In this document: piece by piece, positions 7,195 to 27,918 of the stretch | Position numbering within the stretch: the stretch's first letter is position 1 | How the letters are laid out: each line of letters opens with the position of its first letter | IMG/VR virus record: IMGVR_UViG_3300030388_000656 | Location: 1 to 53,368 of that record | Strand: one strand, 5' to 3' | From: a virus | Lineage: Duplodnaviria; Caudoviricetes | DNA length: 53,368 bases | Made by a program: the position numbers and the translations under genes | Notes under the pieces: generated by a model | What the model saw: only the letters and a program-made list of their open reading frames with translations | The model's database searches: none | What the model was told of the DNA's origin: nothing

Positions 7195-7229
7195 AAAAAA
7201 AAGAAAAAGAAAGGGGGAATTACCCCCCT
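7195..7229 (-). terminator. Intrinsic terminator after the SSB-like gene
   Basis: - strand agggggg-taatt-cccccttt hairpin followed by a long T tract. Confidence 0.75.
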
Positions 7230-9778: not shown

Positions 9779-10015
9779 TCAACTTTTCTTTATCCAGTCT
9801 ATTTCAAACTTAAGATGATTAATCGCTTTTTCAATATCTTCGATATGCTTTGCCTTGTTATTCATTCCTTCTTCTGTCTTCTTGCCACAGCGTAATAAAT
9901 AGCTGGTTGCAGTTCCTACATTGTATGACAAGCTCCAGTCTTCAATGACCTTCCTTGCTTCATAGCCATACACTTTCCCTATATAATAGGATGGTACATC
10001 AATTTTCTCACTCAT
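9779..10015 (-). CDS. DUF3310 (SaV-like) protein
   Basis: PSYY...EARKVI...YNVGTATSYLLRCGKK...EDIEKAINHL. Confidence 0.75.
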   Translation of the reverse strand: MSEKIDVPSYYIGKVYGYEARKVIEDWSLSYNVGTATSYLLRCGKKTEEGMNNKAKHIEDIEKAINHLKFEIDWIKKS

Positions 10016-10224
10016 TTCTTTTTAAATCTAAATTGTGACATATCATTATTGATTGTCATCGGCTTTCTGTATAACGGAATAAGAGAGGTAAACTTGTCGT
10101 TATCCTCTCTCCTTCCACTATTCTTAAAATAATCATCAAACTCAATTACATTACTCCTGTAGTTGTCTTCGAATTCTTTTAGTCTTTTGTACTCTTCTAT
10201 AAATTCTCTGGTATCTGGACTCAT
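10012..10224 (-). CDS. Hypothetical protein
   Basis: 70 aa ORF with ATGA overlaps on both sides. Confidence 0.65.
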   Translation of the reverse strand: MSPDTREFIEEYKRLKEFEDNYRSNVIEFDDYFKNSGRREDNDKFTSLIPLYRKPMTINNDMSQFRFKKK

Positions 10225-10823
10225 TCGACAATGATGTGTCTTTTACTCTCTTCTCTGATGTATTTTTTAGCTTCAACTAATGAAGTACCTAAAAACTCCA
10301 TACCCCACCAGTCGCAGTAGTATCCTATTCCACCATCGTAGTTTGGATGCTCATCTAATAACTTAGATAGATGGTATGTTTTCTTCTTATAAGTGTATTC
10401 AATTTCTTCATCAAAGTTTGGTTCATCGTATTCATCGTGCATAATCTGTTCTCCATTTTCATACTCCATCTCTCCTCCCCAGCCATTTTCTTCTTCCCAA
10501 TGGTAAATGAAGTCTGGAAAGTCCTTACTAAATAATTCAATGATGTTCATTCCAATACAGCTCCATGCTGAAGAGAAATTAATAGATCCCTCGTTTATGT
10601 CTATTTCGATGTCGTAACATCCCCATTTTGTATTCCAGTTATGAAGTCTCCATTCATACCATTTATGGTCTGCATCTCCCTTGTTTATCTCTGGAAGATA
10701 GTGTCTACATAAAGCTACTGGTTCTTCAGAATTCAATGTACTTTCCCAGTACTTTAGAATGTCTCTTTGTTTAGTGGTCATATCGTTACCGATTTGGATT
10801 CCACTCATTACATGATTTGGCAT
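10221..10823 (-). CDS. Api92/YubB-like ferredoxin-like domain protein
   Basis: MPNH start, WYEWRLHNWNTKW, FSSAW, WEEE..WGG motifs. Confidence 0.65.
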   Translation of the reverse strand: MPNHVMSGIQIGNDMTTKQRDILKYWESTLNSEEPVALCRHYLPEINKGDADHKWYEWRLHNWNTKWGCYDIEIDINEGSINFSSAWSCIGMNIIELFSKDFPDFIYHWEEENGWGGEMEYENGEQIMHDEYDEPNFDEEIEYTYKKKTYHLSKLLDEHPNYDGGIGYYCDWWGMEFLGTSLVEAKKYIREESKRHIIVE

Positions 10824-10842
10824 AATAGTTTTTGATTTTATT

Positions 10843-10895
10843 TATACTGACTACCTTTCGGTAGTTTCGGATACTGAATCCATCATCAGAGTATA
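10843..10895 (-). ncRNA. Type I hammerhead ribozyme HHR-1
   Basis: - strand RNA: UAUACU CUGAUGA U GGAU-UCAGU-AUCC GAA A CUACC-GAAA-GGUAG U C ^ AGUAUA. Full catalytic core, three perfectly paired stems, GUC cleavage triplet (cut between 10849 and 10848). Confidence 0.93.
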
Positions 10896-10896
10896 T

Positions 10897-11175
10897 TTAC
10901 AAGTGTCCTCCATACCCATTGGGAAGTTGGAATCTCCACTCGCTGTCGCTTTCTGGTTCGTTCATTCCTTCGTGGTCATGAACCCCACTACCAAACACAA
11001 TCTCAGTTTGGTTAATTAAATTATCTAAGACATCTACCCAGCTGTCTTCTATACTCATTAGGTAATCTGAAACATCTTCTTCTTTGATGTTCTCTGGTAG
11101 CTCTACCTCAATCTCGGTGTATTTATGATACACACTTCTCTGTTGTATTGTTACTGAATTTTTAGCCATTTCCAT
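10897..11175 (-). CDS. Hypothetical acidic early protein
   Basis: 92 aa ORF; stop codon ends 1 nt before HHR-1. Confidence 0.7.
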   Translation of the reverse strand: MEMAKNSVTIQQRSVYHKYTEIEVELPENIKEEDVSDYLMSIEDSWVDVLDNLINQTEIVFGSGVHDHEGMNEPESDSEWRFQLPNGYGGHL

Positions 11176-11390
11176 AGTTTTTCGGTTAAACTTAATTTAG
11201 GTACACAACCATATGATTCAAAGATTACATCCAGACTATTTATTTCTAATTCAATAAAGTGTTCTGAGTGTGGTGTGAAATCAAATGCTCCTGTTGTTGC
11301 GTTGTACTCTACTGCTTGCTCATCATACTTGTGATGGCACATCTCTTCAGCTATGTAGCGTTTGAGATTTTGTAATTCTACTTCATCCAT
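11151..11390 (-). CDS. Hypothetical early protein
   Basis: 79 aa ORF downstream of the promoter at 11431-11462. Confidence 0.65.
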   Translation of the reverse strand: MDEVELQNLKRYIAEEMCHHKYDEQAVEYNATTGAFDFTPHSEHFIELEINSLDVIFESYGCVPKLSLTEKLWKWLKIQ

Positions 11391-11430
11391 GTTGTTTAAT
11401 TTAATTTAATTAATAGTTATTTTATGTTCA

Positions 11431-11462
11431 CAAAAGTATTAAATACTTAGCTTAAATCCAAA
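11431..11462 (-). promoter_or_regulatory. Bacteroidota consensus promoter
   Basis: - strand TTTG-N20-TACTTTTG, a perfect -33/-7 match. Confidence 0.75.
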
Positions 11463-11654
11463 TTATACTCCGTAAATTAATTTGAGTAATATCCACAGGA
11501 GGTAAGACACTATAAGAAGGAAAACAGATGCTCCCAGTCCAAATACTAATGCCTCCAGTAGGAACTTAGATGGGTTCTTCTGGATTCTTTCCCAGTCAGT
11601 ATCCTCCTTGTAGTTGTCGTACTTCTTGTCGATTTTGTTTATTCTATCTTTCAT
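11463..11654 (-). CDS. Small membrane protein
   Basis: Long hydrophobic C-terminal segment. Confidence 0.6.
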   Translation of the reverse strand: MKDRINKIDKKYDNYKEDTDWERIQKNPSKFLLEALVFGLGASVFLLIVSYLLWILLKLIYGV

Positions 11655-11878
11655 AATCCTTGTCTTTTCTCATCAGCTAAGTCTTCTAAATAAGACTCAT
11701 GCCTGTTGACATTATACTCATCTTCATCAATGATTTCGCACTCATCTTTGCACTCATCACAGATGTAGCATCCTTCTACCTCTTCGTTCTCTTCAAACTC
11801 TTCGTATCCAGCTCCACAGCAAGTACTAACTTCCTCTGAGTAATCTGGAGAGGCTAATTTCCAATTGTCGTAATTCAT
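11651..11878 (-). CDS. Acidic zinc-ribbon-like protein
   Basis: STCCGA...CYICDECKDEC. Confidence 0.6.
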   Translation of the reverse strand: MNYDNWKLASPDYSEEVSTCCGAGYEEFEENEEVEGCYICDECKDECEIIDEDEYNVNRHESYLEDLADEKRQGL

Positions 11879-11888
11879 ATCTATTTAT

Positions 11889-12020
11889 TTATTTGTACCA
11901 ACCATAGGTCGGTAGTTTCTTGCATTGTCTTGTACTACTGCAAGAGATTAATGATAACAGCACAACCAAACAATATGTGTATGCCATGAGTTTTAAAAAT
12001 ACCTTTGTTGAGTTTTTCAT
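11889..12020 (-). CDS. 43 aa putative lipoprotein (missing from the ORF track)
   Basis: MKNSTKVFLKLMAYTYCLVVLLSLISC-SSTRQCKKLPTYGWYK; lipobox LISC; fills the intergenic gap exactly. Confidence 0.6.
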   Translation of the reverse strand: MKNSTKVFLKLMAYTYCLVVLLSLISCSSTRQCKKLPTYGWYK

Positions 12021-12022
12021 AT

Positions 12023-12325
12023 CTAAAATGGAAGTTCGTTAAAGCTATTTTCTATCTGGTCTGAATACCTTTTGAATATTTCATTCCAGTCAATACACTT
12101 GATATCTTCATACTCAAATTGCTCGCTGTCTACCAGTGACATGAATTCCGTTAAAGGATTGTCAAAGTTAGACTTATTGTCCAGAATAACACATAGTCTG
12201 TAAGTCTGTACATTTTTGTAGCCATAGAACTTCTCTTCTATGTCGTTCTTTTCTTTGGTAAGGTTCTCTACCAGTTCTTTGTACTTATTGATGTCTTCAA
12301 TAAGGTTCTTTGCAGTTAAATCCAT
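12023..12325 (-). CDS. Hypothetical protein with N-terminal coiled coil and C-terminal ELPF
   Basis: 100 aa ORF. Confidence 0.65.
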   Translation of the reverse strand: MDLTAKNLIEDINKYKELVENLTKEKNDIEEKFYGYKNVQTYRLCVILDNKSNFDNPLTEFMSLVDSEQFEYEDIKCIDWNEIFKRYSDQIENSFNELPF

Positions 12326-12346
12326 AGATCTATTTATTTAGGTTTT

Positions 12347-12394
12347 GAGGAACATCCCTCTACCACGAAATCCCCACTAATTTCTTAGTGAGGC
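12347..12394 (-). ncRNA. Unrecognised two-hairpin structured motif, copy B1
   Basis: - strand G CCUCACUAA-GAAA-UUAGUGGGG AUUUCGUGGUA GAGGG-AUGU-UCCUC; covaries with the copy at 13390-13436. Confidence 0.6.
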
Positions 12395-12395
12395 A

Positions 12396-12435
12396 TGGGT
12401 ACGTTATCGTATCCTTCTGGGTACGTTATCGTATC
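12396..12435. repeat. 18 bp perfect direct repeat x2 (22 bp period)
   Basis: tgggtacgttatcgtatc at 12396-12413 and 12418-12435. Confidence 0.9.
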
Positions 12436-12659
12436 TATTTTACTGGTTTCCTTCCTACATGATTGAAAAGGATGTAAAGACTATCTGTCTTATGCTGGTA
12501 CTCATTGTAGGTCTTTTGCAACTCGTAGTCAATTCGTTCTCTCTCCATTAATTGTAGCGTTGAGAATTTATATGAACTACATGATTGTAGTAAAAATGAT
12601 ACAGCCAGAACTACAAATGCATATCGCATGTAGTAAGTGAAAATTGTTTTTAAACTCAT
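12435..12659 (-). CDS. Putative lipoprotein
   Basis: Hydrophobic signal ending LLQSC, followed by SS. Confidence 0.6.
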   Translation of the reverse strand: MSLKTIFTYYMRYAFVVLAVSFLLQSCSSYKFSTLQLMERERIDYELQKTYNEYQHKTDSLYILFNHVGRKPVK

Positions 12660-12660
12660 C

Positions 12661-13008
12661 TTAGTTGTTTGTATTAGTTATTATTGCTTGCTCTTCTTCT
12701 GTATACTCTTGGATGTCTACCAGTTTACCATCTATCTCTTCGTACTGGATATCTTCATCCTCTACCCAGTCTGTCCAGTAATAAATCTCATCGTTGTAAG
12801 CCCATTCCATTAATTCTTCATCAGTCATCTTGCTTGGGTACAGCTGGTTTCCATCTTCATCCTCTGCTGTAAAATCTTGACCTCTCAAGGTGTCAATTAA
12901 GTCCTTGTCATTTGCAATATACTCGTGGTCGTTGTACAGGTAACCTTCGTTCATACCCTCTCCAGTTATACCACATTGTCTTGCCCAAAAAATTCTTTCT
13001 TTACTCAT
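12661..13008 (-). CDS. Hypothetical acidic early protein
   Basis: Start moved to ATG 13008 (MSKERIFW) because the track start at 13080 lies inside HHR-2. Confidence 0.7.
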   Translation of the reverse strand: MSKERIFWARQCGITGEGMNEGYLYNDHEYIANDKDLIDTLRGQDFTAEDEDGNQLYPSKMTDEELMEWAYNDEIYYWTDWVEDEDIQYEEIDGKLVDIQEYTEEEQAIITNTNN

Positions 13009-13036
13009 CTTATTTGAATTAGTTTGTATCATTATT

Positions 13037-13089
13037 GATAGTGACTGCCAGCTGGCAGTTTCGGATATTAAATCCATCATCAGACTATC
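13037..13089 (-). ncRNA. Type I hammerhead ribozyme HHR-2
   Basis: - strand RNA: GAUAGU CUGAUGA U GGAU-UUAAU-AUCC GAA A CUGCC-AGCU-GGCAG U C ^ ACUAUC. Full core with compensatory changes relative to HHR-1; cut between 13043 and 13042. Confidence 0.93.
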
Positions 13090-13372
13090 TGCTTCCCTCC
13101 ATGCAGTCTTTAAACATTATCCAGTCAGATACTTTCATGTCTTCAAATATCACATGTCCAAGCACGCTTACTAACTCCTCTTTCATTGTAGTTTGTGCCA
13201 TGATTAATCTAAGTTTTGGATAGTAGATACCTCCCATTTCATATGAGATTTTCTCTTCATCTTCTGGAGTTAATGTGTCTTTGATTCTGATACAATTCAT
13301 CTCTCTCTGAATTAACTCATTTCTGAAATCGTGCTTTAACATCTGTACTTGGTTTAAAATCTTTGCGTTCAT
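13085..13372 (-). CDS. Hypothetical early protein
   Basis: 95 aa ORF; its TAG stop lies within stem I of HHR-2. Confidence 0.7.
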   Translation of the reverse strand: MNAKILNQVQMLKHDFRNELIQREMNCIRIKDTLTPEDEEKISYEMGGIYYPKLRLIMAQTTMKEELVSVLGHVIFEDMKVSDWIMFKDCMEGSR

Positions 13373-13389
13373 GTCTTTAATTTTAGTTT

Positions 13390-13436
13390 AGGAATAGTCC
13401 TGTACCACGAAATCCTCGCATATTTCTATGCAAGGC
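13390..13436 (-). ncRNA. Unrecognised two-hairpin structured motif, copy B2
   Basis: - strand G CCUUGCAUA-GAAA-UAUGCGAGG AUUUCGUGGUA C AGGA-CUAU-UCCU. Confidence 0.6.
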
Positions 13437-13455
13437 TTTCTCTGGAGAGGGGTTT

Positions 13456-13752
13456 CTACGATATTCTCGGCACAACAGCATCATCATCTGGGTTGTTTGC
13501 ACTTTCATATATACCTATGAAGTCATGCACTACATCCGTTAACCTGTGCTTACTGAGTCTATTCATTCCGTATTTTGTTACTTCCTCTACCCATTCTTGA
13601 TTGGTTTCTACTACTTGTTTGAGCATGTCTCTTACTGGCTTATTCTCTTGCTTAGAGATTTCTAACATCCAGTTCATAGGCATGAGAATATCTAATCTCA
13701 TTACTAATTCTTGTCTCTTTTGTTGTGCTAAAATTTGATTGGAAATATGCAT
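13456..13752 (-). CDS. Hypothetical early protein
   Basis: 98 aa ORF. Confidence 0.65.
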   Translation of the reverse strand: MHISNQILAQQKRQELVMRLDILMPMNWMLEISKQENKPVRDMLKQVVETNQEWVEEVTKYGMNRLSKHRLTDVVHDFIGIYESANNPDDDAVVPRIS

Positions 13753-13772
13753 GGTGTTTTTGGTTTATTAGA

Positions 13773-14033
13773 TTAGTATAATTCTGATTTCTCGATGTTC
13801 TTGATTTCGTATTTTGGTAGCTCTTCGCAGTACTCTGAGTACTTGTTAAATGAATGCTCACACTTTCTGTCGATTTGTCTCAACTCCTTAGAATCGTATT
13901 CACATACGTTCTCATCTAAGTTGTCATAGACTAAGTCTCTGGTGTTATTGAATGCGTTGTGCTTTACCAACCAGTTAACTGCCTTAGTTACCAGTGGCTG
14001 ATTTTTAGACTTGATAGCTGTAAATTTACTCAT
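13773..14033 (-). CDS. Hypothetical protein, first gene of the early operon
   Basis: 86 aa ORF about 40 bp downstream of a -7 box. Confidence 0.7.
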   Translation of the reverse strand: MSKFTAIKSKNQPLVTKAVNWLVKHNAFNNTRDLVYDNLDENVCEYDSKELRQIDRKCEHSFNKYSEYCEELPKYEIKNIEKSELY

Positions 14034-15121: not shown

Positions 15122-16768
15122 ATGGAACAAGGATACATTCCTAAAGACCTCAGCTTTGATGATGAGGCAAGGAACAAATTGATAAGTGGGATTACTAAAA
15201 TCTCCAAAGCAGTTAAGAGTACGTTAGGGCCAAGAGGTCAAACTGTTTTAATAGAATCAACAGAACATTTACAGGGGTTAACTATTACAAAGGATGGAGT
15301 TACTGTCGCTAAGTCAGTACACCTTGATGATCCTATTGAGAACCTTGCAGTTCGTATGATGAAGCAAGCTTCTGAGAAGACTGCTAATGTTGCTGGAGAT
15401 GGAACTACTACAGCTATTGTATTGACTGAAGCTATTGTCCAGGCAGGAATGAAATGGATCAAGCCTTATCATAATGTAACTGACATTGTTAGATACATAA
15501 GAGAGGACTCTGATGTTATTATAGAGAACATTAGGAATAGATCATTAGAGGTTACTGATGATATGTTAAAAGACATTGCAGCTATATCAGCTAACAATGA
15601 TTATGAGTTAGGAGATATTATCTCTGAAGCATATCAACAAGTTGGTAAGGATGGGATAGTAACAGTTGAGAGATCTCAAACTGACAAGACATATTCAGAG
15701 GTTACTAATGGAATAAGAATAGATAGAGGTTATACTTCTCCTATGTTTATTAATGATCAAAGAAAAGATGAATGTATTATGGAAGGTGTTAAGGTTTTAA
15801 TCTGCGACACTGAGATTCATAACATACTTCAAATAGAGAATATACTTAAACCAATTATTAATGCAGGAGATAAACTTTTAATTATCGGAACTTGTGCTGG
15901 CAATGTTATAAATACATTAGCAGCAAATGTTCAACGTAATGGATTAAAGTTTTGTAACATCATGCCTCCTTCATTTGGATACAAGACTCATGAGTTAATG
16001 CAGGATATTGCATTTGCTACTGGAGCTAAATACTTTTCAGAAAAGACTGGAGATGATTTATCTATTATAACTATGGCAGACTTGGGTTATGCTGATAAGA
16101 TTATAGTAGGCAAGTCATCTACTGTTATTATAAAGCAAGGAGATATTAGTGATGAGACATCTTCAAGAGTAGCAGAGCTACGAGATCAACAAGAAAGACT
16201 TACAGCAAAACATGAGAAGGACTTTATCAATGAAAGGATTGCTTCTTTAGTTGGAGGGATAGGTTGTATATATGTTGGGGCTACATCTGATATAGAACAA
16301 AAAGAAAAATTTGACAGAGTCGATGACTCTGTCTGTGCAGTACGTTCAGCTCTACAAGAAGGAGTTGTTCCTGGTGGAGGATTATTGTTATATGATTTCT
16401 CAAGACACTTCGGTTGTAACTGTGAAGATGCAGTATCTGAAAAGATAGATGAAGACCAGGCAGCAGAAATGATTATGAGAGAAGCTTTGAAAGCTCCACT
16501 AAAACAAATCCTTGCTAATGCTGGGCTTGATGAAAAGGAAGTTATGTCAGAGATATATACTGATGCTATGTTAGGAACATTAGATGATGCTCCTGAAGTA
16601 CCAGAAAATAACAGAGGCTATGATGTGGTAGGTAAACAATACGGAGATATGTTTGAGATGGGTATTGTTGATCCAGCCAAAGTAACGAAAGAAGCTTTGC
16701 TTAATGCAATTAGTGTTGCAACAACTATACTAACTACTAACGCAATCATAACACATAAACGAGCATGA
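15122..16768 (+). CDS. groEL: Phage-encoded group I chaperonin GroEL
   Basis: AVKSTLGPRG, ITKDGVTVAK, AGDGTTTA, IDRGYTSP, ERIASL.GG, GVVPGGG, GIVDPAKV. Confidence 0.97.
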   Translation: MEQGYIPKDLSFDDEARNKLISGITKISKAVKSTLGPRGQTVLIESTEHLQGLTITKDGVTVAKSVHLDDPIENLAVRMMKQASEKTANVAGDGTTTAIVLTEAIVQAGMKWIKPYHNVTDIVRYIREDSDVIIENIRNRSLEVTDDMLKDIAAISANNDYELGDIISEAYQQVGKDGIVTVERSQTDKTYSEVTNGIRIDRGYTSPMFINDQRKDECIMEGVKVLICDTEIHNILQIENILKPIINAGDKLLIIGTCAGNVINTLAANVQRNGLKFCNIMPPSFGYKTHELMQDIAFATGAKYFSEKTGDDLSIITMADLGYADKIIVGKSSTVIIKQGDISDETSSRVAELRDQQERLTAKHEKDFINERIASLVGGIGCIYVGATSDIEQKEKFDRVDDSVCAVRSALQEGVVPGGGLLLYDFSRHFGCNCEDAVSEKIDEDQAAEMIMREALKAPLKQILANAGLDEKEVMSEIYTDAMLGTLDDAPEVPENNRGYDVVGKQYGDMFEMGIVDPAKVTKEALLNAISVATTILTTNAIITHKRA

Positions 16769-17022: not shown

Positions 17023-17461
17023 ACTGATTCATTTCTATAATCATATTACGATAAACCTTATCCATATAGGAAGCATCATGTCTAAATAAAGGGTTGGCCT
17101 TAGGGCCTTCTCCTATTTCTTCTCCATTAAGTTTCTTATATAATGTGTTGATCAAACGCTTTCCTTTATATGATAGCTCATATAGAGTAGATTCTTTACC
17201 CTCTCTTTTTCTCCAGATAGTTATCCATCCTTCTTTCAAGAGTCTATGAAATCTTGGCTCATCCCAGGACATACATTCCTCGAATTCTTTGAATTTTGTT
17301 TTGTTAAATATCTGCTCTCCATATAGAAAAAACAACATATCTATATCAGGAGTTCCGACTTTGTACTTGGCTTTAGCCCAGTACCTTATCACCCTCCAGT
17401 ACTTCATGTAATCATGTGAGGGTTGAACTCTATCGTAATTTTTCCGAACTATATTTGGCAT
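16991..17461 (-). CDS. Putative winged-helix (MarR-like) DNA-binding protein
   Basis: RLLKEGWI...LYELSYKGKRL wing motif; the only - strand gene in the + arm. Confidence 0.55.
   Translation of the reverse strand: MPNIVRKNYDRVQPSHDYMKYWRVIRYWAKAKYKVGTPDIDMLFFLYGEQIFNKTKFKEFEECMSWDEPRFHRLLKEGWITIWRKREGKESTLYELSYKGKRLINTLYKKLNGEEIGEGPKANPLFRHDASYMDKVYRNMIIEMNQFTRQQRHLSQ

Positions 17462-25026: not shown

Positions 25027-27918
<2,892 letters not shown>

What the first reader, a model, noticed from the sequence alone, without database searches (positions are those of the whole stretch)
13037..13089. Second hammerhead ribozyme (HHR-2) covaries with HHR-1 and overlaps a stop codon
Seen: same 53 nt length and identical core to HHR-1. 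Stem I has changed (GAUAGU/ACUAUC versus UAUACU/AGUAUA) and stem III has changed (CUGCC/GGCAG versus CUACC/GGUAG) with all pairs preserved, which indicates selection on structure. Both copies have the extra U after CUGAUGA, a UYARU loop II, and AAUAA directly after stem I. The UAG stop of 13085-13372 is part of stem I. Inference: a terminating ribosome could modulate folding, coupling cleavage to translation. The loop II/AAUAA pair is a candidate tertiary contact.
Basis: partly seen in the sequence, partly recalled or inferred. Interest (0 to 1): 0.88.

Follow-up and report, generated by a model that had tools for sequence, protein, structure and literature searches.

The report
Two hammerhead ribozymes in phage operon
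A marine phage carries two genuine self-cutting hammerhead RNA motifs between small early genes, each starting at the end of the gene before it; this arrangement is already known from phages, and here it is seen in a sequence variant that the standard RNA library misses.

Summary
Window 13037-13089 and 10843-10895, both on the minus strand, each encode a 53-nt type I hammerhead with a complete catalytic core. Each has an extra U after CUGAUGA, a GUC cleavage triplet, and three compensatory pair changes between the copies. The UAG of ORF 13085-13372 lies inside stem I.

A covariance model built without the window's sequences scores them 70.1 and 68.4 bits (E about 1e-16). Nothing else in the window reaches E 1. 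Rfam 15 finds neither.

They belong to a large class found in viral contigs: 48 model hits in the window plus 24 viral loci, with 99.7% of cells paired. Members often occur as 2-4 clustered copies.

Across 113 sites with an upstream ORF, the stop lies upstream of stem I in 64, overlaps stem I in 20 and is a core UGA in 27. The next start codon lies a median 29 nt after the cleavage site. Stop overlap is therefore the family rule, not a peculiarity of this copy.

AAUAA is not conserved; only the first A is. No Watson-Crick loop II/tail helix holds.

The most likely role is self-cleavage that separates a polycistronic early mRNA, as published for prophage hammerheads in 2011. Translation coupling remains untested. 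This is a new member of a known kind, of moderate interest.

The parts
13037..13089 (-). HHR-2, a type I hammerhead. Stem I 5' strand 13089-13084; core CUGAUGA 13083-13077; extra U 13076; stem II with loop 13075-13063; GAA 13062-13060; stem III with loop 13059-13044 (A15.1 = 13059, U16.1 = 13044); C17 = 13043; stem I 3' strand 13042-13037.
   Evidence: Direct reading; fold; R2 70.1 bits, E 7.7e-17.
13042..13043 (-). Predicted HHR-2 cleavage site, between C17 (13043) and A1.1 (13042). The upstream fragment would end in a 2',3'-cyclic phosphate and the downstream fragment would start with a 5'-OH.
   Evidence: Position follows from the hammerhead consensus (GUC triplet). Cleavage itself was not tested.
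13032..13036 (-). AAUAA tail after HHR-2 stem I. Its last A starts an in-frame AUG (13032-13030).
   Evidence: The first A is conserved in 19 of 20 rows of A2.
13085..13372 (-). Upstream ORF (95 aa). Its UAG stop (13087-13085) lies inside HHR-2 stem I.
   Evidence: A 97-aa homologue at 71% identity shows it is a real gene.
12661..13008 (-). ORF downstream of HHR-2 (115 aa from AUG 13008, or 8 codons longer from AUG 13032). The leader after cleavage would be 34 or 10 nt.
   Evidence: No family match.
10843..10895 (-). HHR-1, the sister type I hammerhead. C17 = 10849, with cleavage between 10849 and 10848.
   Evidence: R2 68.4 bits, E 2.3e-16.
10897..11175 (-). ORF upstream of HHR-1 (92 aa). Its UAA stop (10899-10897) ends 1 nt before stem I.
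10221..10823 (-). ORF downstream of HHR-1 (200 aa). Its AUG lies 25 nt after the cleavage site.
   Evidence: It gives weak hits to phrog_12644 and phrog_20518, and to PF18406 below the cut-off.
10849..13042 (-). The 2194-nt segment between the two cleavage sites. It carries 8 small ORFs, which I selected from the list.
   Evidence: That it forms a single transcript is inferred, not shown.

Best explanation
Both elements are active type I hammerhead ribozymes encoded on the sense strand of a run of small early genes in a marine phage, probably of Flavobacteriaceae. When the polycistronic RNA is made, each ribozyme folds and cuts itself 3' of C17 (13043|13042 and 10849|10848). The upstream message keeps its stop codon and ends in the compact ribozyme body with a 2',3'-cyclic phosphate. 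The downstream message starts with a 5'-OH, the six released stem I bases and a short A-rich leader before its AUG. The ribozymes therefore act as gene separators: they split one transcript into pieces whose stability and translation no longer depend on each other. Shown here: the motif, its selection, and its placement rule. Inferred: cleavage in the cell, and its effect on stability and translation.
For: Every core base required by the published filter is present, and the pairs next to the core are G10.1-C11.1, A1.1-U2.1 and A15.1-U16.1 (criteria from a passage of PMC3088659).

The independent model R2 gives E 7.7e-17 and 2.3e-16.

A scan that constrained only the core and stem II found 26 sites in 24 viral loci. 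All 26, plus the window's two, can form stem I and stem III (two of them use a G-U pair).

On the 48 model hits, 99.7% of 652 cells are paired, 14 of 16 pairs show double changes, and 0 of 500 shuffles reach the observed values.

Placement: an ORF of at least 40 codons on the same strand ends within -150 to +20 nt of the ribozyme's first base in 113 of 117 sites, and its stop lies within -9 to +8 nt of the first stem I base in at least 89 of those 113. The next start codon lies a median 29 nt after the cut, with an interquartile range of 22-33, n=101.

Copies cluster: 3-4 within 1.2-2.7 kb in four of five whole viral records, alternating with ORFs in L010.

In print: multiple hammerheads flank genes in prophages, cleave during in vitro transcription, and one triple set cleaves when expressed in E. 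coli. Processing of long phage transcripts was proposed there (PMC3088659 passages; PMC6155905 and PMC6765202 passages).
Against: No cleavage or expression data exist for this phage. No RNA run holds the region, and contigs cannot show RNA ends.

No Rfam hammerhead model matches, even at E 10.

No clear tertiary contact was found, so the cleavage rate at cellular Mg2+ is uncertain.

In 147-nt contexts the predicted fold keeps stems II and III but replaces the weak stem I with other pairings.

Transcript boundaries are not defined. A promoter-like match lies between the two ribozymes at 11431-11462(-), though such matches are not clearly enriched: 8 found against 3.35 expected.

The closest sequenced relative by terminase (72.9% identity) has no hit, so the elements are dispensable.

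The family counts come from pattern-selected, partly related sites.
Confidence: 0.7

Rival explanations
1. Ribosome-gated ribozyme. The stop codon sits at or inside the 5' edge of the ribozyme, so a terminating ribosome covers stem I and the core. Translation of the upstream ORF would then time cleavage, block it, or help release the cut product.
For: The stop lies upstream of stem I in 64 sites (most often at -3 to -7, in my reading of the rows), overlaps it in 20 and is a core UGA in 27, out of 113. Only 2 ORFs run deeper into the ribozyme. HHR-2 has UAG in stem I, and HHR-1 has UAA 1 nt before it. Stem I is the weakest helix and is lost in longer predicted folds.
Against: Compact intergenic spacing explains the same pattern. 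The motif itself supplies stops, with two in-frame UGAs in the core and often UAA in stem I, so any ORF reaching it in those frames must end there. No alternative structure is shared by the two copies. Nothing here measures cleavage with or without translation.
Confidence: 0.15
2. Leader-making element. The purpose of cleavage is to create a free 5' end 20-35 nt before the next AUG, turning on translation of the downstream ORF. This would suit hosts such as Flavobacteriia, which I recall initiate without a strong Shine-Dalgarno signal.
For: The distance from the cut to the next start is narrow: median 29 nt, interquartile range 22-33, n=101. Leaders in the window's class are A-rich. The closest cultured relatives infect Flavobacteriaceae. 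Ribozymes that support translation of downstream ORFs are reported for RNA viruses of fungi and plants (PMC13725137, abstract and passages).
Against: The GC-rich sister class, which I judge likely to come from other hosts, shows a similar stop placement in the rows. The spacing may simply be the minimum room for a ribosome-binding region. No reporter data exist.
Confidence: 0.2
3. Circular or spliced RNA. The two cuts release a 2194-nt RNA with 5'-OH and cyclic-phosphate ends, which is ligated into a circle by the ribozyme's reverse reaction or by a host ligase.
For: In a type I ribozyme the catalytic body stays on the fragment that carries the cyclic phosphate (PMC3088659 discussion passage). 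In other phages, neighbouring copies share the same stem I, for example in L010, L130 and L090. That would let the ends of an excised piece dock together.
Against: In this window the two stem I helices are not interchangeable. The 5' end left by HHR-2 pairs with the HHR-1 strand at only 4 of 6 positions, with a mismatch next to the cut (hand comparison). The authors of PMC3088659 state they could not detect circular or spliced products.
Confidence: 0.04
4. DNA-level role. The repeated ~55-bp units mark cassette boundaries and promote recombination or shuffling of small accessory genes. Any RNA cleavage would be secondary.
For: Distribution among relatives is patchy: present in three Elemovirus records, and absent from the 72.9% terminase relative and from three Cellulophaga and Tenacibaculum phages. 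Flanked ORFs are small and lack family matches. A review notes the same (PMC6155905 passage). L013 holds two identical HHR copies whose downstream leaders agree over the first 20 or so bases shown.
Against: Compensatory changes preserve RNA helices, which DNA recombination would not require. The element is always on the sense strand of the flanking genes, in 113 of 117 sites. The window's two copies share only about 79% identity, with identical runs of at most 15 nt (hand count).
Confidence: 0.08

Closest known systems
Type I, II and III hammerheads flanking genes in prophages and phages (Perreault et al. 2011, PMC3088659; passages read)
   Same: A consensus core, three helices, an intergenic position on the sense strand, and several copies close together around single genes or short gene blocks. 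The proposed role is processing of long phage transcripts.
   Different: The window's copies carry an extra U between A9 and G10.1. They show no Watson-Crick pseudoknot of the kind that paper found in about 40% of hammerheads. They sit in an uncultured marine phage contig rather than a prophage. I could not see that paper's supplementary alignments, so I cannot say whether this exact variant is listed there.
Rfam Hammerhead_1 (RF00163)
   Same: Type I topology and the same catalytic core.
   Different: The 45-position model gives no match up to E 10 on the window, although two candidates were scored. The whole Rfam library finds no family at all in ten other loci, where my descriptor finds more than 20 type I sites.
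Hammerheads with a nucleotide inserted between positions 9 and 10.1: CChMVd (+) strand, and hammerheads of Penelope-like elements
   Same: One extra base at the same place. A review states that changing the viroid's extra A to U raised the trans-cleaving rate 3-4 fold (PMC3705267 passage). A conserved nucleotide at this position is reported in Penelope-like-element hammerheads (PMC4209133 passage).
   Different: Those are a type III viroid ribozyme and eukaryotic retroelement ribozymes. Here the insertion occurs in a phage type I ribozyme, and copies with and without it sit side by side in the same phage.
[quoted passage not shown]
   Same: A type I ribozyme with a long helix III placed just before an ORF. 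Those authors likewise report no typical loop-loop contact.
   Different: Those are RNA virus genomes of fungi and plants, where the ribozymes make subgenomic RNAs and aid translation in eukaryotic cells. This one is in a bacterial dsDNA phage.
Retrozymes and viroid-like circular RNAs
   Same: A pair of hammerheads in the same orientation bracketing a segment.
   Different: Those use type III ribozymes with compatible ends and are known as circles. Here the two stem I helices are not interchangeable (4 of 6 pairs), and the segment is 2.2 kb of protein-coding RNA.

Membership tests
Hammerhead ribozyme | Conserved core: C3 U4 G5 A6 N7 G8 A9, G12 A13 A14, the A15.1-U16.1 pair, and H17 | tested here: met
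   Read directly in both copies. The only departure is one extra U between A9 and G10.1.
Hammerhead ribozyme | Three helices around the core, with no mispair next to the core (10.1-11.1, 1.1-2.1, 15.1-16.1) | tested here: met
   The pairs are G-C, A-U and A-U. The minimum-free-energy fold is the junction. Family covariation holds in 14 of 16 pairs.
Hammerhead ribozyme | Site-specific self-cleavage 3' of position 17 | not testable with these tools
   This needs an in vitro or in vivo assay. RNA contigs gave no information.
Hammerhead ribozyme | Tertiary contact between stem I and loop II, needed for fast cleavage at low Mg2+ | tested here: inconclusive
   The three-pair loop II/tail helix is paired in 53% of cells. 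The single pair between columns 28 and 59 is U-A 17, G-C 1, other 2. The A before stem I is invariant in 20 of 20 rows, and the A after it is present in 19 of 20.
Hammerhead type I topology | Stem I open; stems II and III closed by loops | tested here: met
Rfam Hammerhead_1 (RF00163) and the other Rfam hammerhead models | Score at or above the family's gathering threshold | tested here: not met
   No match at gathering, none at E 10 on the whole window or on a 151-nt piece, and none for RF00163 alone at E 10.
Phage gene-flanking hammerhead arrangement (PMC3088659) | Two or more hammerheads close together on the sense strand around small genes | tested here: met
   Two copies lie 2194 nt apart on the strand of all flanking ORFs. 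The same holds in related records.
Ribozyme-bracketed circular RNA (retrozyme-like) | Ends left by the two cuts can re-form one ribozyme helix | tested here: not met
   Cross-pairing of the HHR-2 3' strand with the HHR-1 5' strand gives 4 of 6 pairs, with a mismatch at 1.2-2.2 (hand comparison).

The most novel reading that the evidence does not exclude
The ribozyme is placed by rule at the upstream stop codon so that the terminating ribosome takes part in the reaction. While a ribosome sits on the stop it prevents folding. When a ribosome reaches a ribozyme that has already cut, it unwinds the 6-bp stem I and drives off the downstream product. Cleavage, product release and the fate of the next gene's message would then be set by how heavily the upstream ORF is translated. 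This would be a translation-coupled ribozyme switch common to a large class of phage hammerheads.
Probability: 0.12. Interest if true: 0.8.

Novelty: new member of a known kind. Interest (0 to 1): 0.42.

Why it matters
What phage and bacterial hammerheads are for is still described as an open question in the reviews read here (passages). This locus adds three usable points:

- A well-defined type I variant is abundant in viral contigs but invisible to Rfam 15, so routine annotation misses it. In one cultured phage record a 35-aa ORF is annotated over it on the opposite strand.
- A placement rule was measured on about a hundred sites: the stop codon sits at the ribozyme's 5' edge and the next start about 29 nt after the cut. 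This turns loose ideas about mRNA processing into specific tests.
- A related copy exists in cultured Flavobacterium phages (Elemovirus), so those tests can be done in a laboratory host.

Tried and rejected
**Rfam.** No hammerhead family matched at gathering, at E 10 on the window, on a 151-nt piece, or for RF00163 alone. None matched in ten other ribozyme-bearing loci. I do not read this as evidence against a hammerhead, because the core and covariation are direct.

**Similarity and family searches on the region.**
- blastn of 10000-14000 against the phage collection found no match.
- PHROGs and Pfam on the small flanking ORFs gave nothing useful.

**Expression.** No RNA holder is listed. Laying two RNA runs gave one 166-nt contig at 10941-11103 in X22, nothing in X24, and nothing over either ribozyme. 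This gives no verdict.

**Population variation.** DNA contigs of X7 and X8 covering the ribozymes showed no differences, so they add no information on covariation.

**Orthologous loci.**
- Searches with the 95-aa ORF found none.
- A search with the 200-aa ORF found none.

**Prokaryote genomes.**
- The exact class pattern gave 0 hits.
- The looser pattern gave 120 loci. Among the 80 listed and searched, only 3 model matches turned up, in 2 loci. The other 40 were not searched.

**Structure tests.**
- A Watson-Crick pseudoknot between loop II and the tail was rejected as a helix.
- Longer folds of 147 nt gave alternative pairings of the stem I strands that differ between the two copies, with z-scores of -1.6 and -1.8. 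I treat these as noise.

**Promoters.** The sigma-70-type scan found fewer sites than the shuffles. A recalled Bacteroidota-type motif gave 8 sites against 3.35 expected. Transcript starts are not defined.

**Circular RNA reading.** Considered and put low; see the rival explanations.

**Work left undone.** A planned table of base frequencies around stem I was lost with the script machine. Supplementary files of PMC3088659, which hold its alignments, could not be seen. They may already list this variant and may describe stop-codon proximity. My text searches for that point found no paper stating it.

Full report
**What is there.** On the minus strand, 13089->13037 and 10895->10843 each read as a complete type I hammerhead. 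The parts, in order, are:
- a 6-bp stem I;
- the core CUGAUGA;
- one extra U;
- a 4-bp stem II (GGAU/AUCC) closed by a 5-nt loop;
- GAAA;
- a 6-bp stem III counting A15.1-U16.1, closed by a 4-nt loop;
- U and C17;
- the 3' strand of stem I.

Both are 53 nt long and both are followed by AAUAA. Two stem I pairs and one stem III pair differ between the copies, each by a change on both sides. The UAG that ends ORF 13085..13372(-) occupies 13087-13085, inside the stem I 5' strand. The UAA that ends ORF 10897..11175(-) stops 1 nt before HHR-1. Each 53-mer, alone or with 10-nt flanks, folds into the three-way junction as its minimum-free-energy structure. It only omits that the element is on the minus strand.

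**More than chance.**
- Rfam 15 reports no hammerhead at gathering, at E 10 on the whole window, or on a 151-nt piece.
- RF00163 searched alone scored two candidates but returned nothing up to E 10.
- I built a model (R2) from 18 gapless relatives taken from other loci, with no window sequence in it. It scores HHR-2 at 70.1 bits (E 7.7e-17) and HHR-1 at 68.4 bits (E 2.3e-16), and finds nothing else in the window up to E 1.
- With the sister model R1 and filters off, the third-best site reaches only 12.7 bits.

**A large family in viral contigs.**
- A pattern fixing only the core, the extra U and the window's stem II found 26 sites in 24 viral loci. All of them, plus the window's two, can form stem I and a stem III of varied length and sequence. 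Stems I and III were not part of that pattern, so this test is not circular.
My descriptor script found 133 type I sites across all the sequences then held, 111 of them unique and a few spurious.
- Two sub-classes stand out.
  - One is AT-rich. It has a 6-bp stem I flanked by A on both sides and a U-N-A-N-U loop II. The window's copies belong to it.
  - The other is GC-rich. Its loop II (..GGC..) can pair with its tail (AGCCA or AACCA). This is the pseudoknot type described in PMC3088659 (passages).
- On the 20-row gapless alignment A2, all 320 cells pair and 13 of 16 pairs show double changes. Those rows were chosen by a descriptor that demands pairing.
- On 48 model hits in the window plus the 24 first-scan loci, 99.7% of 652 cells pair and 14 of 16 pairs show double changes. 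Sliding the partners by 1-3 columns drops pairing to 19.5-43%. That alignment is fitted to the model.
- Copies with and without the extra U occur in the same phage.

**Placement rule.** I analysed 117 sites with distinct contexts.
- Of these, 113 have an ORF of at least 40 codons on the same strand that ends within -150 to +20 nt of the ribozyme's first base.
- The stop lies upstream of stem I in 64, overlaps the stem I 5' strand in 20, and is a UGA of CUGAUGA in 27. It lies deeper in 1 and after the cut in 1.
- The median offset of the stop's first base from the first stem I base is -3, with quartiles -6 and +5. At least 89 of the 113 fall within -9 to +8.
- Of 105 sites with enough downstream sequence (12 were dropped for short flanks), 101 have an ORF of at least 50 codons starting within 200 nt of the cut. 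The median distance is 29 nt, with quartiles 22 and 33.
- In L010 the ORF/ribozyme/ORF alternation can be read directly.
- In five whole viral records, four hold 3-4 copies within 1.2-2.7 kb, all on one strand.
- Caveats:
  - The sites are pattern-selected and partly related.
  - The motif itself carries stops in one or two frames.
  - I had no matched control of ribozyme-free gaps.

**Tertiary contact.**
- AAUAA as such occurs in 4 of 20 rows of A2. The first tail base is A in 19 of 20 and the second in 14 of 20 (hand counts).
- The base before stem I is A in 20 of 20 rows, and in 18 of 18 rows of A1.
- In the 28 pattern-selected sites, loop II has U1 and A3 fixed, while positions 2 and 4 take several bases. 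UYARU is therefore a property of this pair of copies only.
- A three-pair Watson-Crick helix between the 3' half of loop II and the tail is paired in 53% of cells.
- Its outer pair, last loop base with first tail base, is U-A in 17 rows, G-C in 1 (L125) and unpaired in 2.
- That single double change is a hint, not evidence. A-rich leaders are also expected for another reason: the likely hosts are Flavobacteriia, which I recall lack a strong Shine-Dalgarno signal.

**The phage.** The window is a whole viral record of 53,368 bases, estimated 88% complete.
- The minus-strand arm holds a primase/helicase-like protein, an SNF2-type helicase, a PDDEXK-like protein and a Sak single-strand annealing protein. 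The plus-strand side holds a GroEL-like chaperonin, terminase, portal and structural proteins.
- The terminase is 72.9% identical to that of an uncultured podovirus. It is 45.6% identical to Flavobacterium phages of the genus Elemovirus and 36-39% identical to Cellulophaga phages.
- DNA runs that hold the region are marine.
- R2 finds one related hammerhead in elemoA_7-9A at 17282-17352(-), scoring 41.5 bits. It sits in a block of small minus-strand ORFs.
  - An unannotated 19-codon ORF ends with a UAG overlapping stem I.
  - The next AUG lies 28 nt after the cut.
  - The record annotates a 35-aa ORF on the opposite strand over the ribozyme.
- elemoD and elemoF each have one copy at 27.9 bits.
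- The 72.9% relative, phi38:1, phi13:2 and Gundel_1 have none.
- The exact class pattern is absent from 185,579 representative prokaryote genomes.

**Expression.** No RNA run holds the stretch. The two RNA runs laid gave one short contig inside ORF 10897..11175 and nothing at the ribozymes. This is no evidence either way.

**Comparison with what is known.**
- PMC3088659 (passages) reports hundreds of bacterial hammerheads near prophage genes.
  - Multiple copies flank single genes or short blocks.
  - The copies cleave in vitro in about 2-kb transcripts, and one set cleaves in E. coli.
  - The authors suggest that long phage transcripts are cut into gene-length mRNAs.
  - They also state that circular or spliced products were not detected.
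- Reviews say such motifs flank small non-conserved ORFs and that their role remains open (PMC6155905 and PMC6765202 passages). They also say that type I, II and III hammerheads all occur in phages (PMC7761336).
- An extra base between A9 and G10.1 is known in a viroid hammerhead, where U at that place raised the trans-cleaving rate. It is also known in hammerheads of Penelope-like elements.
- I found no paper stating the stop-codon rule. Supplements were closed.

**Mechanism.** The best-supported reading is constitutive self-cleavage that separates genes of a polycistronic early transcript.
- The upstream piece keeps its stop codon and ends in a structured ribozyme body with a cyclic phosphate.
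- The downstream piece begins with a 5'-OH and a short leader.
- From general knowledge of bacterial RNA decay, such ends should slow 3' exonucleases and 5'-monophosphate-dependent nucleases. This step is inferred, not shown.
- The ribosome-coupling idea is compatible with the placement rule but is not demanded by it.
- A circle from the 2194-nt segment is unlikely here, because the two stem I helices cross-pair at only 4 of 6 positions.

**Verdict.** This is a real, well-supported hammerhead pair and a new member of a known kind. Its value lies in the Rfam gap, the measured placement rule and the link to a cultured phage-host pair. Interest is 0.42.

Noticed in passing
L262 3276-3383 (MT497017.1 17275-17382, + strand): In the cultured Flavobacterium phage elemoA_7-9A, a 35-aa hypothetical CDS is annotated on the opposite strand exactly over the hammerhead found by R2 (17282-17352, minus strand). 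It is probably a spurious gene call covering an unannotated ribozyme.
   Followed up: partly
L010, L130, L090, L138, L047, L024, L013 (sites listed): Neighbouring hammerheads within one phage often share the same stem I sequence: three copies in L010, four in L130 and three in L090 as printed. This is unlike the window's pair. Identical stem I would let the ends of an excised piece re-form a ribozyme, a precondition for circles or for exchange in trans.
   Followed up: no
Many loci, e.g. L032, L037, L052, L068: A GC-rich sister class has stem I CCCGC/GCGGG, a loop II containing GGC and a tail AGCCA or AACCA, which fits a loop II/tail pseudoknot. It also carries the extra U.
   Followed up: no
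L008 10499-10604 (minus strand): This hammerhead has the same core and stem II as the window's, but with a 69-nt stem III domain and a GUA cleavage triplet.
   Followed up: no
window 15122-16768 (+): The phage encodes a GroEL-like chaperonin (Pfam Cpn60_TCP1, E 3.7e-62). The related Elemovirus record annotates a cpn10 next to its terminase.
   Followed up: no
window 25027-27918 (+): A 963-aa protein with collagen triple-helix repeats (Pfam PF01391, E 1.1e-50, six stretches). My guess is that it is a fibre or decoration protein.
   Followed up: no
window 13030-13080 (-): The frame opened by the AUG inside the HHR-2 core (13080) stays open through the whole ribozyme into the downstream gene, so the ORF listing reports ORF 12661..13080. 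The same frame in HHR-1 hits a UAG in stem III, so this looks accidental.
   Followed up: partly
window 11431-11462 (-): A TTTG-N20-TAnnTTTG promoter-like match lies in the 72-nt gap between ORFs 11463..11654 and 11151..11390, between the two ribozymes. There are 8 such matches in the window against 3.35 expected.
   Followed up: no
window 7208-7229 (-): A strong terminator-like hairpin (7 pairs, 5 of them G-C, followed by a T run). It may end the minus-strand early unit that contains both ribozymes.
   Followed up: no
window 16046-16127 (+): A long hairpin inside the chaperonin gene gives a weak Rfam hit to mir-7131 (30.7 bits against a gathering score of 74). It is probably chance.
   Followed up: no
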